Source: a phage
DNA: 64,000 nt
Strand: one strand, 5' to 3'
Sequence record: NC_100372.1
Each line of letters starts with the position of its first letter. Within the stretch, counting starts at the first letter, position 1. Below are positions 3,373 through 36,507 of this stretch, in pieces. The notes beneath the pieces were generated by a model. That model had not been told where the DNA came from. It saw only the letters and a list, made by a program, of their open reading frames with translations, and did not search any database. The position numbers and the translations under genes are program-made.

Positions 3373-4504
3373 AGAATATCCGCTTATTGAGTCCATAGAT
3401 TGTCTAGCTGATCTTCTTGAACCTGACGCTATAGTTTATTATGACTTCGATCAGGTTGCATACCAAGCTGCAGCAAGCTGTGAAAAAAGGACAATTGAGG
3501 TAACACATAAAGCCTCCGGACGTAAGAAGGTGTTTAAAACACGAACAGAGTTTTGGGGGAGGCAGAAGAACGCAGTTGGCGGCTGGTTAAAGGCTGAGAA
3601 CACCAACCGTGAAGCTGCATGTAAAAAAGCTGGCAAGGAGTTTATTCCGTGGACACGAGAAGATTTCGATGTCTTGGATATCCAAACCCCTGATCCTGTA
3701 GAGAACTGCTTGCACACAATTAAGTGTAAAGCTAATGCAGTCCTTAACTATCTCGGTATTCCTGAAGATCGGTGCGTAGGGGTGCTTGGAGGAACAGGCA
3801 ATTTCAGACTAGATCTTCCCATGCCGGAACGATATAAAGCCAACCGTAACAATACTCTTCGACCACTGTTGCTTGAAGATGCAAGACAGTATCTACAAAA
3901 GCAATATAACGCTCAAGTGATCAACGGTATTGAAGCTGACGACTGGTTAGCTATCCAGCAATTTGAAGGTTGGAACCACTACCAGAAAACAGGAAAGTTC
4001 AACAAGTTTATTATCTCTATAGATAAGGACCAGCGAACACTTCCTGGGCTTGTATTCGATCCGATGAGGAACGATAAAGGTGATTTTGTAAGAGAGACAC
4101 CTATGCTCATTGATAACGGTATGGGTAACATATTCATGAAACCAAACGGCGATGTTGGTGGGTATGGAATGTTGTTCTTCGGTTATCAAATGCTGTGTGG
4201 TGACTCGGCTGACAATATTAAGCCTTACCAAGGGCTTATTGGTAAAGGAAAGTTTGGAGATGCATCTGCATTCTCCTTACTGTCTCAGTGCAGCACACCG
4301 AAAGAGATGTGGTTAGCAATTATTGATCAGTATAAAAAATGGTTTCCGAAAGGTGCCGTTAAGTATACTGATTTCAATGGTATCGACCGTAGGATTTCCG
4401 TAGGCCAGTGGATGAGTATAATTTTTGACTGTTTGTATATGAAGCGAACATTCAATGATCAAACAAAACTTGTTAACGTTCTTAGAAATGTTGGAGCAAT
4501 TTGA
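3365..4504 (+). CDS. 5'-3' exonuclease / flap endonuclease (FEN, PIN-like)
   Basis: GIEADDWLA, ISIDKDQRTL and CGDSADNIKP acidic-cluster motifs typical of T5 D15 / T7 gp6 / Pol I 5' nuclease family. TTG start preceded by AGGAGGG. Confidence 0.8.
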   Translation: MSREYPLIESIDCLADLLEPDAIVYYDFDQVAYQAAASCEKRTIEVTHKASGRKKVFKTRTEFWGRQKNAVGGWLKAENTNREAACKKAGKEFIPWTREDFDVLDIQTPDPVENCLHTIKCKANAVLNYLGIPEDRCVGVLGGTGNFRLDLPMPERYKANRNNTLRPLLLEDARQYLQKQYNAQVINGIEADDWLAIQQFEGWNHYQKTGKFNKFIISIDKDQRTLPGLVFDPMRNDKGDFVRETPMLIDNGMGNIFMKPNGDVGGYGMLFFGYQMLCGDSADNIKPYQGLIGKGKFGDASAFSLLSQCSTPKEMWLAIIDQYKKWFPKGAVKYTDFNGIDRRISVGQWMSIIFDCLYMKRTFNDQTKLVNVLRNVGAI

Positions 4505-31986: not shown

Positions 31987-32313
31987 ATGCTAATGCCGAT
32001 TACTGTAAAAGAGCTAAATGAACGTGATGCAGGGGGCCTGTGGCCTGCACGGAAAATACGCTGCGTTTATATGAAAGAGAATCTTGAGCACCTTGATCAG
32101 CAGATTGCGGTTGGTGATATTTTCGAAGTTCTCTATTCTAATCGTCGCAACTGGGAAACCATTCAACCTTCCGGTTTTGTTCTTGCCAGACTTGATACTG
32201 GAGAAGTGATTATCCCCGGGCTGGATATTGTCTTCGAAATTATCCAGGAGTGGGATCCTGATAAGATTAAATATGAAGAGTTATTCGGTGAAGGTATTAT
32301 CAAGCCTGTGTGA
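31987..32313 (+). CDS. Hypothetical protein
   Basis: Start as in the ORF track. Confidence 0.6.
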   Translation: MLMPITVKELNERDAGGLWPARKIRCVYMKENLEHLDQQIAVGDIFEVLYSNRRNWETIQPSGFVLARLDTGEVIIPGLDIVFEIIQEWDPDKIKYEELFGEGIIKPV

Positions 32314-33357: not shown

Positions 33358-33573
33358 ATGAAAATAGAAATATTTGGTGGGGCTGACAACACTCGTGGCC
33401 TGATTTACCTTGAATTCGATGAATCTTACCTGCCAGAGGTGTTAAATATAGATGCTGTTGCGGAAGCCCTTGATGTAGACCCTAAAGATCTCTACTCCCG
33501 TGCTGAGATTGATGGTTGGGAAGAGACTCTGAACATTGATTTCAGTGAAGTAGTAGATGAACCTTTGGACTGA
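33358..33573 (+). CDS. Small acidic protein (MKIEIFGG..., family-like)
   Basis: ATG 33358 after AGAGGAG. Last gene of the + strand arm. Confidence 0.6.
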   Translation: MKIEIFGGADNTRGLIYLEFDESYLPEVLNIDAVAEALDVDPKDLYSRAEIDGWEETLNIDFSEVVDEPLD

Positions 33574-33713
33574 CACACAAGTCTGCTTTGCAGGTTTAGC
33601 TGCTCAGCTAAGGTTCTGGAGTCACCTATAACATCTTCCAACTAAATTTCCTACCAACACAGTTACTTACCCACCACACATGACTGTTTGCTTGTTTAGT
33701 GAGCAGTCATCCC

Positions 33714-33741
33714 TTGACATTCTTGCCTATCTTGATAAAAT
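33714..33741 (+). promoter_or_regulatory. sigma70-type promoter firing into ORF-free DNA
   Basis: TTGACA(33714-33719), 16 nt spacer, TAAAAT(33736-33741). No ORF with an SD downstream. Confidence 0.5.
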
Positions 33742-33936
33742 TAAGTTCTTCTCTTTTCTTTTACCGAGTAATTCGGGTTTTCTGTTCTCTTCGGTTTGAA
33801 GGGGTATGGAGATACACCTGAGTGAACAGGGTGAACAACCGAACCTTTAGCTATGGCATTAGCATGGCGAAGCGGACGGGTGACGAAAGAGGGGCCGGAG
33901 GACACCAGTCACTGCCATATAGTATATGGGTGATAA

Positions 33937-34476
33937 CCTGAAGAGTCTGAATAAGTGTTTAAGTACCAGTCAGAGGAAAAGGTGAATGGTAGCCGAAGGG
34001 GGAGGGGGGTTTCTTATATCTTTAATTTGTATACTTTATATACACTTGTAAACCAATTCAATTAGGATCTGTTTACCACACAAAGTGGATGGAGACAAAT
34101 ATCACCTATTAAACTTGAATTATTTATAGAAAATACCACAACACCGCTTAAGTCTTTGATTTTACACACAAATCTTACAAATATCCTACCTCCATATTTA
34201 ACATACTTGTAACATATTCCATATCCTACCTGCCTGATCAATTTACTCCCACCACATTCCCACATTTTCCCTGTCTGTACTACCCCACCCCCGCCGGGAG
34301 TCCCGTCATATCTGGCTTTCCAGCAAATATCACACCCACAAATATCATCACCTGAAGAGGGTTTCATCCCATAATACCTGCCTTACCTGAAGAGCGCTTC
34401 ATACACCACCTAAATTTTTTAATTGACCCCTCCCCGCCGCCGGAGAGGTTGGCTTTTCCCACACAGGCCTGAAGAG
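33937..34476 (+). repeat. CCTGAAGAG 9-mer, 4 direct copies
   Basis: Copies at 33937-33945, 34351-34359, 34386-34394 and 34468-34476. Confidence 0.8.
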
Positions 34477-34706
34477 TCAGCCAGAAATATCTGAACAGGT
34501 CCAGTTATGCCCCGATTTTGTGCTTGTCCTACAGGAGTGCTGCCCTGTCAGGAGCCGGTAGCGACTGGAGTGCTGCCAGGCGGACGGAATGGGAATACTT
34601 CTCATTTTTATAATAATTCTCAAATATCGAGGCAGTGAGGCAAATTAATAGGCCAGGCCGTTCACACAGTGGCACAACATTTGCAATCTATCTTGTGGGA
34701 GTGAAT

Positions 34707-34740
34707 GAGAATACCTATCATTGTGAGAATGGTTATCATT
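34707..34740. promoter_or_regulatory. Two adjacent Fur-box-like sites (GAGAATNNNTATCATT)
   Basis: GAGAATACCTATCATT (34707-34722) and GAGAATGGTTATCATT (34725-34740). The second matches 13/19 of GATAATGATAATCATTATC. Confidence 0.4.
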
Positions 34741-35038
34741 ACGGGCAATTTAACATAATACCTATTATGCGCACCACTGGCGATACATACAGGGATTGAT
34801 AACATGGGTTACTGTTTACGCACATAACAATTATATTTATTACTATTTGTGTGGGATATAGTTAGCAACCAATAGATTAGATATTGACCTGCAGACTTCT
34901 GACCGTCCAGACGTCTAAACGCCCACACAACAAGGATTATACATACATTCCTGAATGTAAACAGGGCCGCAAAAAATGCTACCATACCAGTTTGTAAATT
35001 TTTCATGCAGCACTTGACAAAGAGGAGAAAAACTTGTC

Positions 35039-35100
35039 TGACACAATGTGACAAAATTGCCACTTTTGACACTTTTACCTTTGACACAATATGACACAAT
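35039..35100 (+). repeat. TGACACAAT iteron cluster (5 copies, 3 perfect)
   Basis: Perfect copies at 35039-35047, 35082-35090 and 35092-35100. Variants at 35049 (TGACAAAAT) and 35067 (TGACACTTT). Confidence 0.8.
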
Positions 35101-35193
35101 AACGGCTGTTACTATTCCATATCTCACTGTTTACGTATAGACTGTTTACGCCTGAATAGTTTACGCCCAAACTGTTTACACAGAGATGATAAG

Positions 35194-35432
35194 CCATGAC
35201 ATTCGTTTGCATGAAAACAATTAACAAGTTAATAATATATGACATAATATAAAAGCAGGGCAACTATTAGAAGATCTATAGTTGCCTTGCTTGTTATGTC
35301 ATGATTAACTAAATACAAGGCAACTATGATCTGAATAATAGATTGCAGAAAAACTATCACGGGGGTGATTGTTACTGCTTTTATATTATGTCGCGACTCC
35401 GTCGCGCCATGCCATTCGTTTGCATAGTTGCC
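35194..35432. repeat. Nested direct-repeat / inverted-repeat / palindrome structure
   Basis: 19-nt DR CCATGaCATTCGTTTGCAT (35194-35212 and 35407-35425, 1 mismatch). 18-bp perfect IR GACATAATATAAAAGCAG (35241-35258) / CTGCTTTTATATTATGTC (35375-35392). GGCAACTAT/ATAGTTGCC at 35259, 35278, 35319 and 35424. Confidence 0.85.
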
Positions 35433-36040
35433 TTATTGTTACAGGTAAAACAATTACATTATTAATTATTTCTTATCTTTCTCTTAGTCATCTAATGATT
35501 CCAGTCAGTATAGTAATGTACAGTAAACATTAGACGACTAAAGATTTCTCTGTGTATAATAACTTATCGTGACAATTTCGAACTGTTTACGAAAAATGTT
35601 GACACCTGAGCTGATTTATGTTATGCAGTTTACACGAATAATTATTTTATGCAGGTATTGACTATTCCGTTATTCTGTGGTTGGAATAAATACTTTGCAG
35701 ACTATAGAATGGCGTGCGTACGTGAATTCTGAGATCTGGCGGCTATAGTTATACTCGATTTTTCGCGTAGAACACGCTTTCGATGCTGTGTAAGTGTATG
35801 ACTTATAAAGATTTTTAGTTGTTGACAAGATATTGGAGATGTGCATCAGGTTAAAATTTGTGCAATAGCGGCATTACGTGCACTTTTGGGAGAGAAAACG
35901 GGTAAAAATGGCCCTGCTACCACACAATGAAAGATTATGCAATGGTTATTTTCCATGTATATTTGTACAGTATGTGGGATTGATGGCTAGTCAATTATTC
36001 CACTTGCCAGGTAGGGCCGTTTATGGTAGGAGAAGAGCAG

Positions 36041-36069
36041 ACAAAAAGAAAGGGGCCTTTAAGCCCCTT
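36041..36069 (-). terminator. Rho-independent terminator ending the - strand arm
   Basis: On the - strand: AAGGGGC-TTAAAG-GCCCCTT followed by TCTTTTTGT. Confidence 0.8.
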
Positions 36070-36087
36070 GATAATTCAGTTAAGAAA

Positions 36088-36507
36088 TTATAATGATTCG
36101 TATATTTCAAAAATCCGATTTGCCAGGTCGTTACGGTAGCGGAATTTTTCATCGCGCTTGATCATTAAATCCTTATAGCCGTACTCTTTAAGCACTTCAT
36201 TAACTTTATAGCGGCATACCTGCATATTATCTTGAGCGTCACCAATAAACTTGTTGCTGTGGTGCATTGCTTTAATTTCTTCTTCCAGGACCAGGGCAAC
36301 TACCCGGACCGGATCAAGCTGGTAGGCGGTAACATCTATGCGGCATTGTAGACGGCTTTTAACGTCTGCCACCGGATATACTGCAACCTCTTCCCCGTCA
36401 ACATTGACAATAATTAGTTTACCATCGATTTCGAATCCTTTCGCCGCCGGACCGTGACAAAAAGCGTTATCAAAGCTATATGCCGGATTATCAGATTTAA
36501 TGTTCAT
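36088..36507 (-). CDS. Hypothetical protein
   Basis: AGAGG SD. Own promoter at 36557-36585. Confidence 0.65.
   Translation of the reverse strand: MNIKSDNPAYSFDNAFCHGPAAKGFEIDGKLIIVNVDGEEVAVYPVADVKSRLQCRIDVTAYQLDPVRVVALVLEEEIKAMHHSNKFIGDAQDNMQVCRYKVNEVLKEYGYKDLMIKRDEKFRYRNDLANRIFEIYESL

What the first reader, a model, noticed from the sequence alone, without database searches (positions are those of the whole stretch)
33714..34015. Promoter-driven, strongly purine-rich, non-coding stretch mirrored by a G-poor stretch on its right
A good promoter (TTGACA, 16 nt spacer, TAAAAT, 33714-33741) points into DNA with no translatable ORF. The longest ATG ORFs I found there are 14 and 26 codons without an SD.

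The + strand at about 33790-34015 is conspicuously G/A-rich and C-poor, ending in GGGGGAGGGGGG (33999-34010). The adjacent 34030-34440 is G-poor on the + strand, which makes it purine-rich on the - strand. Two purine-rich strands therefore face each other across an AT-rich centre at about 34015-34075.

A short leader hairpin CCGAG-TAA-TTCGG followed by GTTTTCTGTT (about 33763-33785) lies right after the predicted start. It could be an attenuator.

This could be a longer ncRNA or convergent ncRNA pair, or decayed coding sequence.
Basis: partly seen in the sequence, partly recalled or inferred. Interest (0 to 1): 0.5.

Follow-up and report, generated by a model that had tools for sequence, protein, structure and literature searches.

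The report
Ultra-conserved orphan RNA gene beside phage genome end
A strong bacterial-type promoter in an rV5-like E. coli phage drives a ~265-base G-rich stretch that codes for no protein yet is almost invariant in over 100 related phages, so it is most likely an undescribed phage RNA gene sitting just inside the physical end of the genome.

Summary
The window is an rV5-like coliphage (Vequintavirus). The finding lies in the 2.5-kb ORF-free gap between convergent gene blocks. This gap also holds the physical genome ends, a ~460-bp direct terminal repeat at 34579-35038.

The promoter is 11/12 to consensus with an extended -10. G content at 33790-34015 is the window maximum, and at 34030-34440 the window minimum.

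The key new fact is conservation. Block ~33675-34010 is nearly invariant: about 10 variable columns in 249, against ~20% in flanking genes. All 118 GenBank relatives are at least 95% identical. The body of the block runs from the predicted transcription start to the end of the G5AG6 run.

One lineage has a rewritten 18-nt promoter spacer but intact hexamers. No ORF is conserved, substitutions show no codon periodicity, and no protein, Rfam or host homologue exists. Sister genera lack the block.

Best reading: an unannotated, genus-specific ~265-nt non-coding RNA gene. The G-poor stretch is a separate element, a C-rich pre-repeat zone with conserved composition that looks like a Rho-loading site and/or packaging region. 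It is not a mirror-image RNA.

RNA structure and function remain untested, because there is too little variation for covariation analysis.

The parts
33680..33710 (.). Perfect 7-bp inverted repeat ATGACTG-N17-CAGTCAT, ending 3 bp upstream of the -35. It lies inside the invariant block and may be an operator or a processing hairpin.
   Evidence: Unique in the window, against 0.01 expected by chance. Only two singleton substitutions in 20 relatives, at 33680 and 33682.
33714..33741 (+). Sigma-70-type promoter: TTGACA, 16 nt, TAAAAT, with TGn extended -10.
   Evidence: It is the last of 11 near-consensus + strand promoters, all co-oriented with the + strand genes. In L032/L043 the spacer is rewritten and 2 nt longer, but both hexamers and the TG are intact.
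33748..34010 (+). Body of the proposed ~262-265-nt non-coding RNA. The start is predicted at 33745-33749. The conserved body ends with the G-run.
   Evidence: About 10 variable columns of 249 in 20-25 relatives. All 118 GenBank records are at least 95% identical. It ranks in the top 0.3% of 263-nt windows for invariance over 41 kb. Variable-site counts by position modulo 3 are 3/1/4, so there is no codon signature. The + strand folds at -82.9 kcal/mol, z -1.85; the - strand at -53.3, z -0.71.
33764..33776 (+).
   Evidence: It is weak (-4.5 kcal/mol, z -0.85). In the full-length fold it is replaced by a long 5' hairpin.
33844..33849 (+). Hypervariable 6-nt patch (CCTTTA, CATTTG, CCATTG, CAGTTG, TCTTTG and others), presumably unpaired and unconstrained.
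   Evidence: Unpaired in the RNAalifold consensus.
33915..33929 (+). Hairpin CCAUAU-NNU-AUAUGG with a variable loop.
   Evidence: The loop occurs as AGU, GAU or GGU. One relative has A33924G, which keeps a U.G pair on the + strand only.
33998..34009 (+). G5AG6 run marking the 3' edge of the conserved block. It is predicted to pair with the 5' pyrimidine tract CUUCUCUUUUC (33748-33758).
   Evidence: The run length varies by 1-2 nt among relatives. In L028/L030 the sequence diverges completely from the 3rd base after the run, after a shared TT. The closing helix appears in both the MFE and alifold structures.
34010..34075 (.). A+T-rich, fast-evolving spacer.
   Evidence: 78.5% A+T. 73% of columns are variable. 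A+T is 74-80% in most relatives and 62-63% in two.
34076..34465 (+). G-poor, C-rich zone ahead of the terminal repeat. It looks like a Rho-loading (rut) site on + strand RNA and carries repeated motifs.
   Evidence: G 7.5% and C 31% at 34100-34300; the most extreme C/G windows of the 64 kb are here. Relatives keep the composition (G 11-13%, C 29-31%) although 18-46% of columns vary. The 101-aa - strand ORF here is broken in relatives. KPP-1 has an analogous C-rich stretch with shared motifs.
33937..34476 (+). Four copies of CCTGAAGAG (33937, 34351, 34386, 34468). One lies inside the RNA body and three in the C-rich zone.
   Evidence: The other five window copies are in-frame Pro-Glu-Glu codons. 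The three C-rich-zone copies are invariant in 17 relatives. KPP-1 has CCTGAAGTGTCAGCC at the start of its C-rich stretch.
34520..34578 (.). Hypervariable array of roughly 33-nt units directly left of the terminal repeat.
   Evidence: 93% of columns are variable or gapped. Repeat family D17.
34579..35038 (.). Direct terminal repeat, i.e. the physical genome ends, collapsed to one copy in this window.
   Evidence: The first and last 459 bp of the HdK5 record are identical and map to 34579 and 35038. Korf et al. 2019 report 458-bp terminal redundancy. Other records start or end at these points.

Best explanation
The stretch is an unannotated non-coding RNA gene specific to the genus Vequintavirus.

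Proposed mechanism, step by step:
1. Host RNA polymerase starts at a near-consensus sigma-70 promoter (33714-41). This is one of the phage's family of strong promoters and is probably active early.
2. It makes a G-rich RNA of about 262-265 nt (33748 to about 34010). The 5' pyrimidine tract is predicted to pair with the 3' G5AG6 run.
3. There is no canonical intrinsic terminator. Polymerase instead runs into about 400 nt of unstructured, C-rich, G-poor RNA. This is the classical substrate for Rho, which would stop transcription before the 460-bp direct terminal repeat.
4. Exonucleases would then trim the RNA back to the closed G-rich body.
5. The mature RNA most likely acts in trans on an invariant host or phage partner.

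Status of each point:
- Shown: promoter quality and the conservation pattern of its hexamers; extreme conservation with boundaries at +1 and the G-run; absence of a coding signature; conserved composition of the downstream zone; position relative to the genome ends.
- Inferred: that the RNA is made and stable; Rho-dependent 3' end formation; the fold; action in trans.
- Unknown: the target.
For: Identity of the window: searches identify an rV5-like phage. The rV5 paper marks this region only as 'non-coding'.

Promoter. In L032/L043 the hexamers are kept while the spacer is rewritten.

Conservation:
- 0-8% variable columns per 50 nt across 33675-33975, against 20-35% in flanking genes and 73% just after the G-run.
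- About 10 of 249 columns variable.
- 118 records at least 95% identical, while the neighbouring 71-aa protein is only 80-90% identical in 96 of 117 records.
- Top 0.3% for invariance over 41 kb.
- The 3' boundary is fixed by L028/L030.

Not coding.

Strand: the + strand fold is far more stable than the - strand fold. Three or four substitutions at predicted pairs are wobble-compatible on the + strand.

Rho-like zone.

Genus-specific add-on: absent from Septuagintavirus, Phapecoctavirus and Mydovirus loci, although the terminus architecture is the same at least in Mydovirus KPP-1.

Precedent for an ncRNA in an rV5-like phage: PhiTE pseudo-ToxI (PMC3475682).
Against: - I had no expression data of any kind.
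- Folding energy is only marginally better than shuffles: z -1.85 for the exact block and -1.2 for a slightly longer piece.
- None of the 85 predicted pairs shows a compensatory change.
- On the structure predicted from the window sequence alone, 4 of 7 substitutions at paired sites break pairs.
- There is no canonical terminator, no Rfam family, and no complementarity to phage mRNAs beyond chance.
- About 40 bp upstream of the -35 is equally invariant, so part of the constraint acts on DNA.
- The location next to the genome ends would also suit a cis-acting role.
Confidence: 0.5

Rival explanations
1. The transcript acts in cis at the genome end. A strong promoter makes a G-rich RNA that stays hybridised to its C-rich template as an R-loop, possibly anchored by the G5AG6 run. 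This would open the adjacent A+T-rich DNA to prime or activate replication, or drive polymerase toward the concatemer junction to help end processing or packaging. Analogues: ColE1 RNA II, T4 oriF/oriG, mitochondrial CSB II, T7 phiOR and the T7 concatemer-junction pause.
For: - An orphan promoter lies 865 bp upstream of the terminal repeat and points at it.
- The highest G content of the window is on the non-template strand, with several G3-G6 clusters ending in G5AG6, followed at once by 78% A+T.
- The block borders the terminal cis region, which is marked by CTGTTTAC, TGACAC and GGCAACTAT repeats.
- The rV5 replisome is T7-like, with a gp4-type primase-helicase, and no origin is known.
- A cis-essential element would explain universal presence in the genus.
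Against: - Sister genera have no counterpart, although KPP-1 at least shares the terminus layout, and presumably homologous machinery. KPP-1 has only 335 bp, all C-rich, before its repeat.
- Near-total invariance of about 250 nt is more than an R-loop requires.
- The A+T-rich spacer is replaced by 62% A+T sequence in two relatives.
- No antisense control RNA promoter is present.
- Skew extremes here also coincide with the switch in gene orientation.
Confidence: 0.22
2. The block is a DNA-level cis element, for example a binding platform for the terminase small subunit or for a replication or partition protein at the right genome end. In this view the promoter is incidental or only helps to open the DNA.
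For: - Conservation extends 40 bp upstream of the -35 and includes a perfect inverted repeat.
- One CCTGAAGAG copy, a motif repeated three more times in the zone ahead of the terminal repeat, lies inside the block.
- Cis sites for packaging are typically the most conserved non-coding DNA in a phage.
Against: - Protein-binding sites do not normally require about 330 contiguous invariant base pairs.
- The body of the block runs from the transcription start to a G-run rather than to the repeat-motif region.
- The promoter hexamers are selectively kept while the spacer changes.
- The strong strand asymmetry, and the difference in fold stability between strands, point to RNA.
- The true repeat-rich terminal region (34069-35590) evolves fast.
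Confidence: 0.1
3. The low diversity has no functional cause. It reflects a recent recombinational sweep or gene conversion of this segment through the genus, so the block is neutral DNA or a decayed gene or small-peptide locus.
For: These phages are mosaics. The left boundary coincides with a haplotype break (a 21-nt indel at 33581-33601), and the right boundary with a replaced segment in L028/L030.
Against: - A sweep would have to have reached all 118 sequenced isolates from four continents, and to stop exactly at a promoter and a G-run.
- A few sites inside the block (33844-33849, 33921-33922) have accumulated multiple alleles while about 240 others have none. That pattern indicates constraint, not recency.
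- No ORF, periodicity or protein homologue was found.
- G-run indels frameshift the only ORF that has a plausible Shine-Dalgarno sequence.
Confidence: 0.06

Closest known systems
Phage-encoded non-coding RNAs of unknown or anti-host function (T4 stable RNAs; PhiTE pseudo-ToxI in an rV5-like Pectobacterium phage, PMC3475682)
   Same: A promoter-driven RNA with no ORF in an intergenic region of a lytic myovirus. The related rV5-like phage PhiTE provides the precedent.
   Different: There are no tandem 36-nt repeats and no similarity to ToxI or any Rfam family. The element is single-copy, about 265 nt, universal in the genus and invariant, rather than evolving by repeat expansion.
phi29 packaging RNA (pRNA); this comparison rests on my own knowledge
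   Same: A small phage RNA gene placed close to one physical end of a linear genome and transcribed toward that end from a strong host-type promoter. It sits next to sequences involved in packaging.
   Different: phi29 is a small, protein-primed podovirus. Terminase-using myoviruses are not known to need an RNA. No structural similarity was tested or found.
Transcription-primed or R-loop origins: ColE1 RNA II, T4 oriF/oriG, T7 primary origin and phiOR, mitochondrial CSB II (G6AG8); this comparison rests on my own knowledge
   Same: A promoter, then G-rich RNA, then a G-run, then A+T-rich DNA. The orientation toward the terminal repeat resembles T7 phiOR.
   Different: No antisense regulator is present. 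The spacer is not uniformly A+T-rich in relatives. The element is absent from sister genera. The RNA body is far more conserved than such origins need.
Rho-dependent terminators (rut sites) following untranslated bacterial RNAs
   Same: About 400 nt with C about 30% and G 7-12%, directly after an untranslated RNA. The composition is conserved although the sequence drifts.
   Different: Rho dependence is untested. The same zone carries conserved motifs (CCTGAAGAG, AAATATCA), partly shared with KPP-1. These suggest an additional DNA-level, packaging-related role.

Membership tests
Sigma-70 promoter | -35 and -10 hexamers close to consensus at 16-18 nt spacing | tested here: met
   TTGACA, 16 nt, TAAAAT with TG extended -10, scoring 11/12.
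Sigma-70 promoter | Selective conservation of the hexamers relative to the spacer | tested here: met
   L032/L043 have six substitutions and a 2-nt insertion in the spacer, with both hexamers and the TG intact.
Sigma-70 promoter | Mapped transcription start | not testable with these tools
   No RNA data were available.
Any curated RNA family (Rfam 15) | Covariance-model score at or above the gathering threshold | tested here: not met
   No hits in the window at gathering thresholds. At E up to 10 over 33400-36300 there were only four weak hits, none in 33748-34010.
Structured non-coding RNA (generic) | Base pairs supported by compensatory substitutions | tested here: inconclusive
   Of 85 alifold pairs, none shows a compensatory change and about 6 show one-sided wobble changes. 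On the single-sequence MFE, 3 substitutions are compatible and 4 break pairs. There are too few substitutions for a real test.
Structured non-coding RNA (generic) | Folding energy below that of shuffled sequence | tested here: inconclusive
   z -1.85 with 4 of 200 shuffles as good for 33748-34012. z -1.2 for 33745-34030.
Transcription attenuator / leader | Stable G+C-rich hairpin plus U-tract, upstream of a regulated gene | tested here: not met
   The hairpin is -4.5 kcal/mol and no better than shuffles. No + strand gene lies downstream.
Hfq-type sRNA | Rho-independent terminator hairpin with a 3' poly-U | tested here: not met
   No terminator-like site lies near 34010. The U-rich tail is replaced in L028/L030.
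CsrB-type sponge | Many GGA motifs presented in hairpin loops | tested here: not met
   There are about six GGA motifs in 265 nt, and only one sits in a plausible loop (33807-33811). Three relatives lose that one through G33808A.
Hammerhead ribozyme | CUGANGA and GAAA cores joined by three helices with an NUH cleavage triplet | tested here: not met
   CUGAAGA (33938-44) and GAAA (33976-79) flank a helix. However, three extra nucleotides separate stem I from the core, position 10.1/11.1 would be G.G, and the triplet would be CCA (sequence inspection). There is no Rfam hammerhead hit.
Type III antitoxin mimic (pseudo-ToxI) | Tandem repeats of about 36 nt similar to an antitoxin RNA | tested here: not met
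   No tandem repeats in 33700-34100.
R-loop / transcription-primed origin | Promoter, G-rich non-template strand with a G-run, and an adjacent A+T-rich unwinding region | tested here: met
   The A+T-rich part is weaker (62-63%) in two relatives.
R-loop / transcription-primed origin | Persistent RNA:DNA hybrid and DNA synthesis starting at its 3' end | not testable with these tools
   Requires DRIP assays, 2D gels or marker-frequency analysis.
Rho-dependent terminator | At least 80 nt of C-rich, G-poor, untranslated RNA | tested here: met
   78-nt windows reach 21-28 C against 2-3 G, the most extreme in the window. The composition is kept in 15 distinct relative sequences.
Rho-dependent terminator | Termination abolished by bicyclomycin or rho mutation | not testable with these tools
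   Requires an experiment.
Protein-coding gene or pseudogene | Conserved reading frame, third-position bias of substitutions, protein homologues | tested here: not met
   Frames are broken in relatives. Variable-site counts by position modulo 3 are 3/1/4 in the core and 31/25/22 in the G-poor stretch, against 7/6/31 and 53/7/8 in real neighbouring genes. There are no PHROG or Pfam hits, and tblastn finds only the same locus.
Short direct terminal repeat (T7-type ends) | Identical sequence at both ends of the virion DNA | tested here: met
   The first and last 459 bp of the HdK5 record are identical and map to 34579-35038. Supported by the literature. It was not shown for the phage of this window itself.

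The most novel reading that the evidence does not exclude
The RNA is an essential cis- or assembly-linked component of genome-end biology in a large terminase-using myovirus. It would be either an R-loop-forming primer or activator RNA that defines the replication origin next to the terminal repeat, or a pRNA-like RNA cofactor for concatemer processing or packaging. Neither role has been described for this kind of phage.
Probability: 0.15. Interest if true: 0.8.

Novelty: new member of a known kind. Interest (0 to 1): 0.5.

Why it matters
Vequintaviruses (rV5, FFH2, EdH4, several BASEL phages) are common in biocontrol and therapy cocktails and are used as model non-T-even coliphages. Their only large 'non-coding' region has never been dissected.

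This work adds three things:
- It places the genome ends inside that region.
- It shows that 265 nt next to the ends are as conserved as the best-conserved enzyme gene.
- It gives a precise candidate RNA gene, with predicted start and conserved 3' boundary, that can be tested with existing Cas13a editing tools for EdH4.

If the RNA acts on the host, it is a new phage takeover or anti-defence RNA. If it acts in cis, it identifies the origin or packaging control of the genus. In either case the block is a good genus-specific marker.

Tried and rejected
- **Rfam.** Nothing at gathering or permissive thresholds.
- **First IMG/VR pattern.** CCCTTGACATTCTTGCC gave 14 chance hits because it included a polymorphic base. 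A second pattern gave 2 true loci.
- **Metagenome scan.** It gave 5 true, near-identical loci and 2 chance 23-nt matches in G+C-rich bacterial contigs. No diverged homologue turned up, so no covariation could be obtained.
- **nhmmer and covariance-model searches.** Septuagintavirus A73 and W70, Phapecoctavirus Ro121c4YLVW and Mydovirus KPP-1 terminus regions gave nothing.
- **blastn against 5,426 E. coli genomes.** Nothing, so this is not a captured host RNA.
- **Giant hairpin between the G-rich and G-poor halves.** The 756-nt folds are no better than shuffles on either strand.
- **Genome-wide CCTGAAGAG signal.** The copies outside this region are Pro-Glu-Glu codons.
- **Antisense targets in phage mRNAs.** The longest match is 11 nt, within chance.
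- **Specific RNA classes.** Hammerhead, CsrB-like, 6S-like, pseudo-ToxI and CRISPR-repeat-mimic readings were all rejected on inspection or on Rfam results.
- **Small peptides.** The 21-codon ORF at 33986 has a Shine-Dalgarno-like sequence but is frameshifted by G-run indels in relatives.
- **Literature.** No description of this element was found.

Full report
**What the window is**

Megablast of 33600-34500 finds 119 phage records, almost all Vequintavirus (rV5-like coliphages of about 137 kb), at 93-99% identity. One 137-kb 'plasmid' is really the same kind of phage.

In annotated relatives, + strand genes end just left of the finding and - strand genes end about 2.5 kb to the right. In the window the last + gene ends at 33573 and the last - gene at 36088. 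This is the grey 'non-coding' box in the rV5 genome paper. That paper gives it no function and reports no terminators there.

**Where the genome ends are**

Several GenBank records start at window position ~34579 or end at ~35038. The first and last 459 bp of the HdK5 record are identical and map to 34579 and 35038. This agrees with the 458-bp terminal redundancy reported for HdK5 and EdH4 and with a 514-bp T7-type repeat in the related Klebsiella phage KPP-1.

The window therefore carries the collapsed direct terminal repeat (DTR) at 34579-35038. The finding sits at the right end of the virion DNA, 570-865 bp inside the repeat, and its promoter points toward the end.

**Checking the observation**

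All elements are present as described:
- The promoter is TTGACA, 16 nt, TAAAAT with an extended -10.
- ATG ORFs inside the transcript are at most 26 codons.
- G content is 34.5% at 33790-34015, the window maximum. It is 10.2% at 34030-34440, the window minimum. The centre is 78.5% A+T.
- The G-run is at 33998-34009.
- The 'leader hairpin' exists but is weak (-4.5 kcal/mol) and no better than shuffled sequence.

One caveat applies. Sense strands of this phage are G>C everywhere, so only the magnitude of the skew is unusual.

The promoter is one of 24 near-consensus sigma-70 promoters in the window. These are almost perfectly co-oriented with the genes, which raises the prior that this one is used.

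**The decisive evidence is comparative**

I aligned 16 GenBank relatives, and later added IMG/VR and metagenome loci.
- Per-50-nt variable-column fractions are 0.08, 0.04, 0.02, 0.06, 0.06 and 0.00 across 33675-33975. They are 0.20-0.35 in the flanking genes and 0.73 just after the G-run.
- In 33748-33996 about 10 of 249 columns vary in 20-25 sequences.
- All 118 GenBank records are at least 95% identical over 331 nt. The adjacent 71-aa protein is only 80-90% identical in most of them.
- Over 41 kb aligned to rV5 and phage navn, the block ranks in the top 0.3% of 263-nt windows (98.5% invariant against a mean of 90%). Only a piece of the ribonucleotide reductase gene ranks higher.

The boundaries are informative:
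- In L032/L043 the promoter spacer carries six substitutions and is 2 nt longer, and the bases around +1 differ. Both hexamers, the TG, and everything from 33748 onward are intact.
- In L028/L030 the sequence is replaced from the 3rd base after the G-run, after a shared TT.
- The constrained RNA body therefore runs from the transcription start to the G-run. Conservation also covers about 40 bp upstream of the -35, including a unique perfect inverted repeat at 33680-33710.

**It is not coding**
- Real neighbouring genes show strong third-position bias of substitutions (7/6/31 and 53/7/8). The core shows 3/1/4, and the G-poor stretch 31/25/22.
- Every polymorphism changes the amino acid in the 39-aa + strand and 54-aa - strand ORFs.
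- The 101-aa - strand ORF in the G-poor stretch is frameshifted or stopped in most relatives.
- G-run indels frameshift the 21-codon ORF that has a Shine-Dalgarno-like sequence.
- PHROGs and Pfam give nothing. tblastn finds only the same locus in the same genus.

**RNA structure is unproven**
- The exact block folds at -82.9 kcal/mol on the + strand (z -1.85, 4 of 200 shuffles as good). The - strand folds at -53.3 (z -0.71).
- The model closes the 5' pyrimidine tract on the 3' G-run.
- RNAalifold gives 85 pairs with no compensatory change.
- The few variable sites fall in a 6-nt patch (33844-49) and in the loop of the 33915-29 hairpin, or are wobble-compatible on the + strand (G33808A, A33924G, C33994U).
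- On the structure predicted from the window alone, four substitutions break pairs.
- I therefore claim an RNA gene on the grounds of conservation, boundaries and strand asymmetry, not a verified fold.

**Distribution**

No homologue was found in any of these searches:
- Rfam.
- E. coli genomes.
- The terminus regions of Septuagintavirus, Phapecoctavirus or Mydovirus, by nhmmer or by a covariance model.
- As a diverged form, in IMG/VR or metagenomes.

KPP-1 has the same layout of convergent genes and a DTR. Only 335 bp, all C-rich, lie between its last gene and the repeat.

**The G-poor stretch is a different element**

Its sequence drifts at ordinary rates. In every relative, however, the 400 nt after the spacer keep G at 11-13% and C at 29-31%. 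It holds the most extreme C/G windows of the 64 kb.

It carries invariant CCTGAAGAG and AAATATCA motifs. Variants of these occur in the C-rich stretch ahead of the KPP-1 repeat.

From established knowledge of Rho, such C-rich, G-poor untranslated RNA is the preferred loading site. I infer that it stops + strand transcription before the DTR. It may also serve packaging. No convincing - strand promoter supports a mirror-image RNA.

**Mechanism and rivals**
- Most likely (0.5): a stable RNA of about 265 nt, with its 3' end formed by Rho termination and trimming, acting in trans. Genus-specific presence together with invariance fits an invariant host target.
- Rival (0.22): a cis-acting R-loop or transcription-toward-the-end role in replication or concatemer processing. 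This is favoured by the position, the G-run and the A+T-rich spacer. It is disfavoured by absence from sister genera, by the 62% A+T spacer in two relatives, and by over-conservation.
- Rival (0.1): a DNA-level binding platform.
- Rival (0.06): a neutral recombinational sweep.

**Novelty**

I found no description of this element in the literature I could search. The PhiTE pseudo-ToxI RNA is the nearest precedent, in an rV5-like phage. I rate the element as a new member of a known kind, namely phage-encoded non-coding RNAs, with moderate interest.

Noticed in passing
window 34579-35038: The direct terminal repeat (about 460 bp), i.e. the physical genome ends, lies inside the non-coding gap. Fast-evolving repeat arrays flank it on both sides, at 34520-34578 and 35039-35324.
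   Followed up: yes
window 34069-35590: CTGTTTAC occurs 8 times in the window, and 7 copies lie in this 1.5-kb terminal region, against 2.2 expected per 64 kb. These include a period-15 array at 35126-35179. TGACAC is repeated about 7 times at 35039-35100, directly after the repeat. They are candidate binding sites for terminase or an initiator protein.
   Followed up: partly
window 35241-35441: GGCAACTAT occurs four times in alternating orientation, together with an 18-bp perfect inverted repeat (35241-58 / 35375-92). The adjacent block 35325-35424 is nearly invariant (2-14% variable columns). This is a second conserved non-coding element, on the left-end side.
   Followed up: no
window 33680-33710: A perfect inverted repeat ATGACTG-N17-CAGTCAT ends 3 bp upstream of the -35. 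It is unique in the window and nearly invariant in relatives. It may be an operator for the orphan promoter.
   Followed up: partly
whole window: There are 24 promoters scoring at least 11/12 to the sigma-70 consensus. All but one are co-oriented with the genes (+ strand left of 33.8 kb, - strand right of 36.5 kb). Sense strands are G>C throughout.
   Followed up: partly
window 33358-33573: The last + strand gene encodes a very acidic 71-aa protein (PHROG 12108, function unknown). Its third-position divergence was used here as the neutral yardstick.
   Followed up: no
window 36050-36069 (- strand): A strong intrinsic terminator (8-bp G+C-rich stem plus T-run) ends the - strand gene block. The + strand block has no equivalent.
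   Followed up: no
L038 (KPP-1) 3500-4330: The Mydovirus terminus shares motifs with the window: CCTGAAGnGTCAGCC before the repeat, and CTTGACAA(A/G)GAG at the right edge of the repeat. This suggests conserved end-recognition signals across genera.
   Followed up: partly
public records CP057073.1, MG0656xx: A 137.5-kb E. coli 'plasmid' record and 18-19 'Campylobacter phage' records (at least one flagged UNVERIFIED) are vequintavirus genomes. Record MG065635 starts exactly at the G-run (33998), probably an assembly break at the homopolymer.
   Followed up: no
window 31987-31997 vs 33855-33865: The apical loop region of the 33850-33868 hairpin is complementary over 11 nt to the start-codon region of the 108-aa ORF at 31987. 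This is within chance expectation (half of shuffles reach 11 nt).
   Followed up: partly
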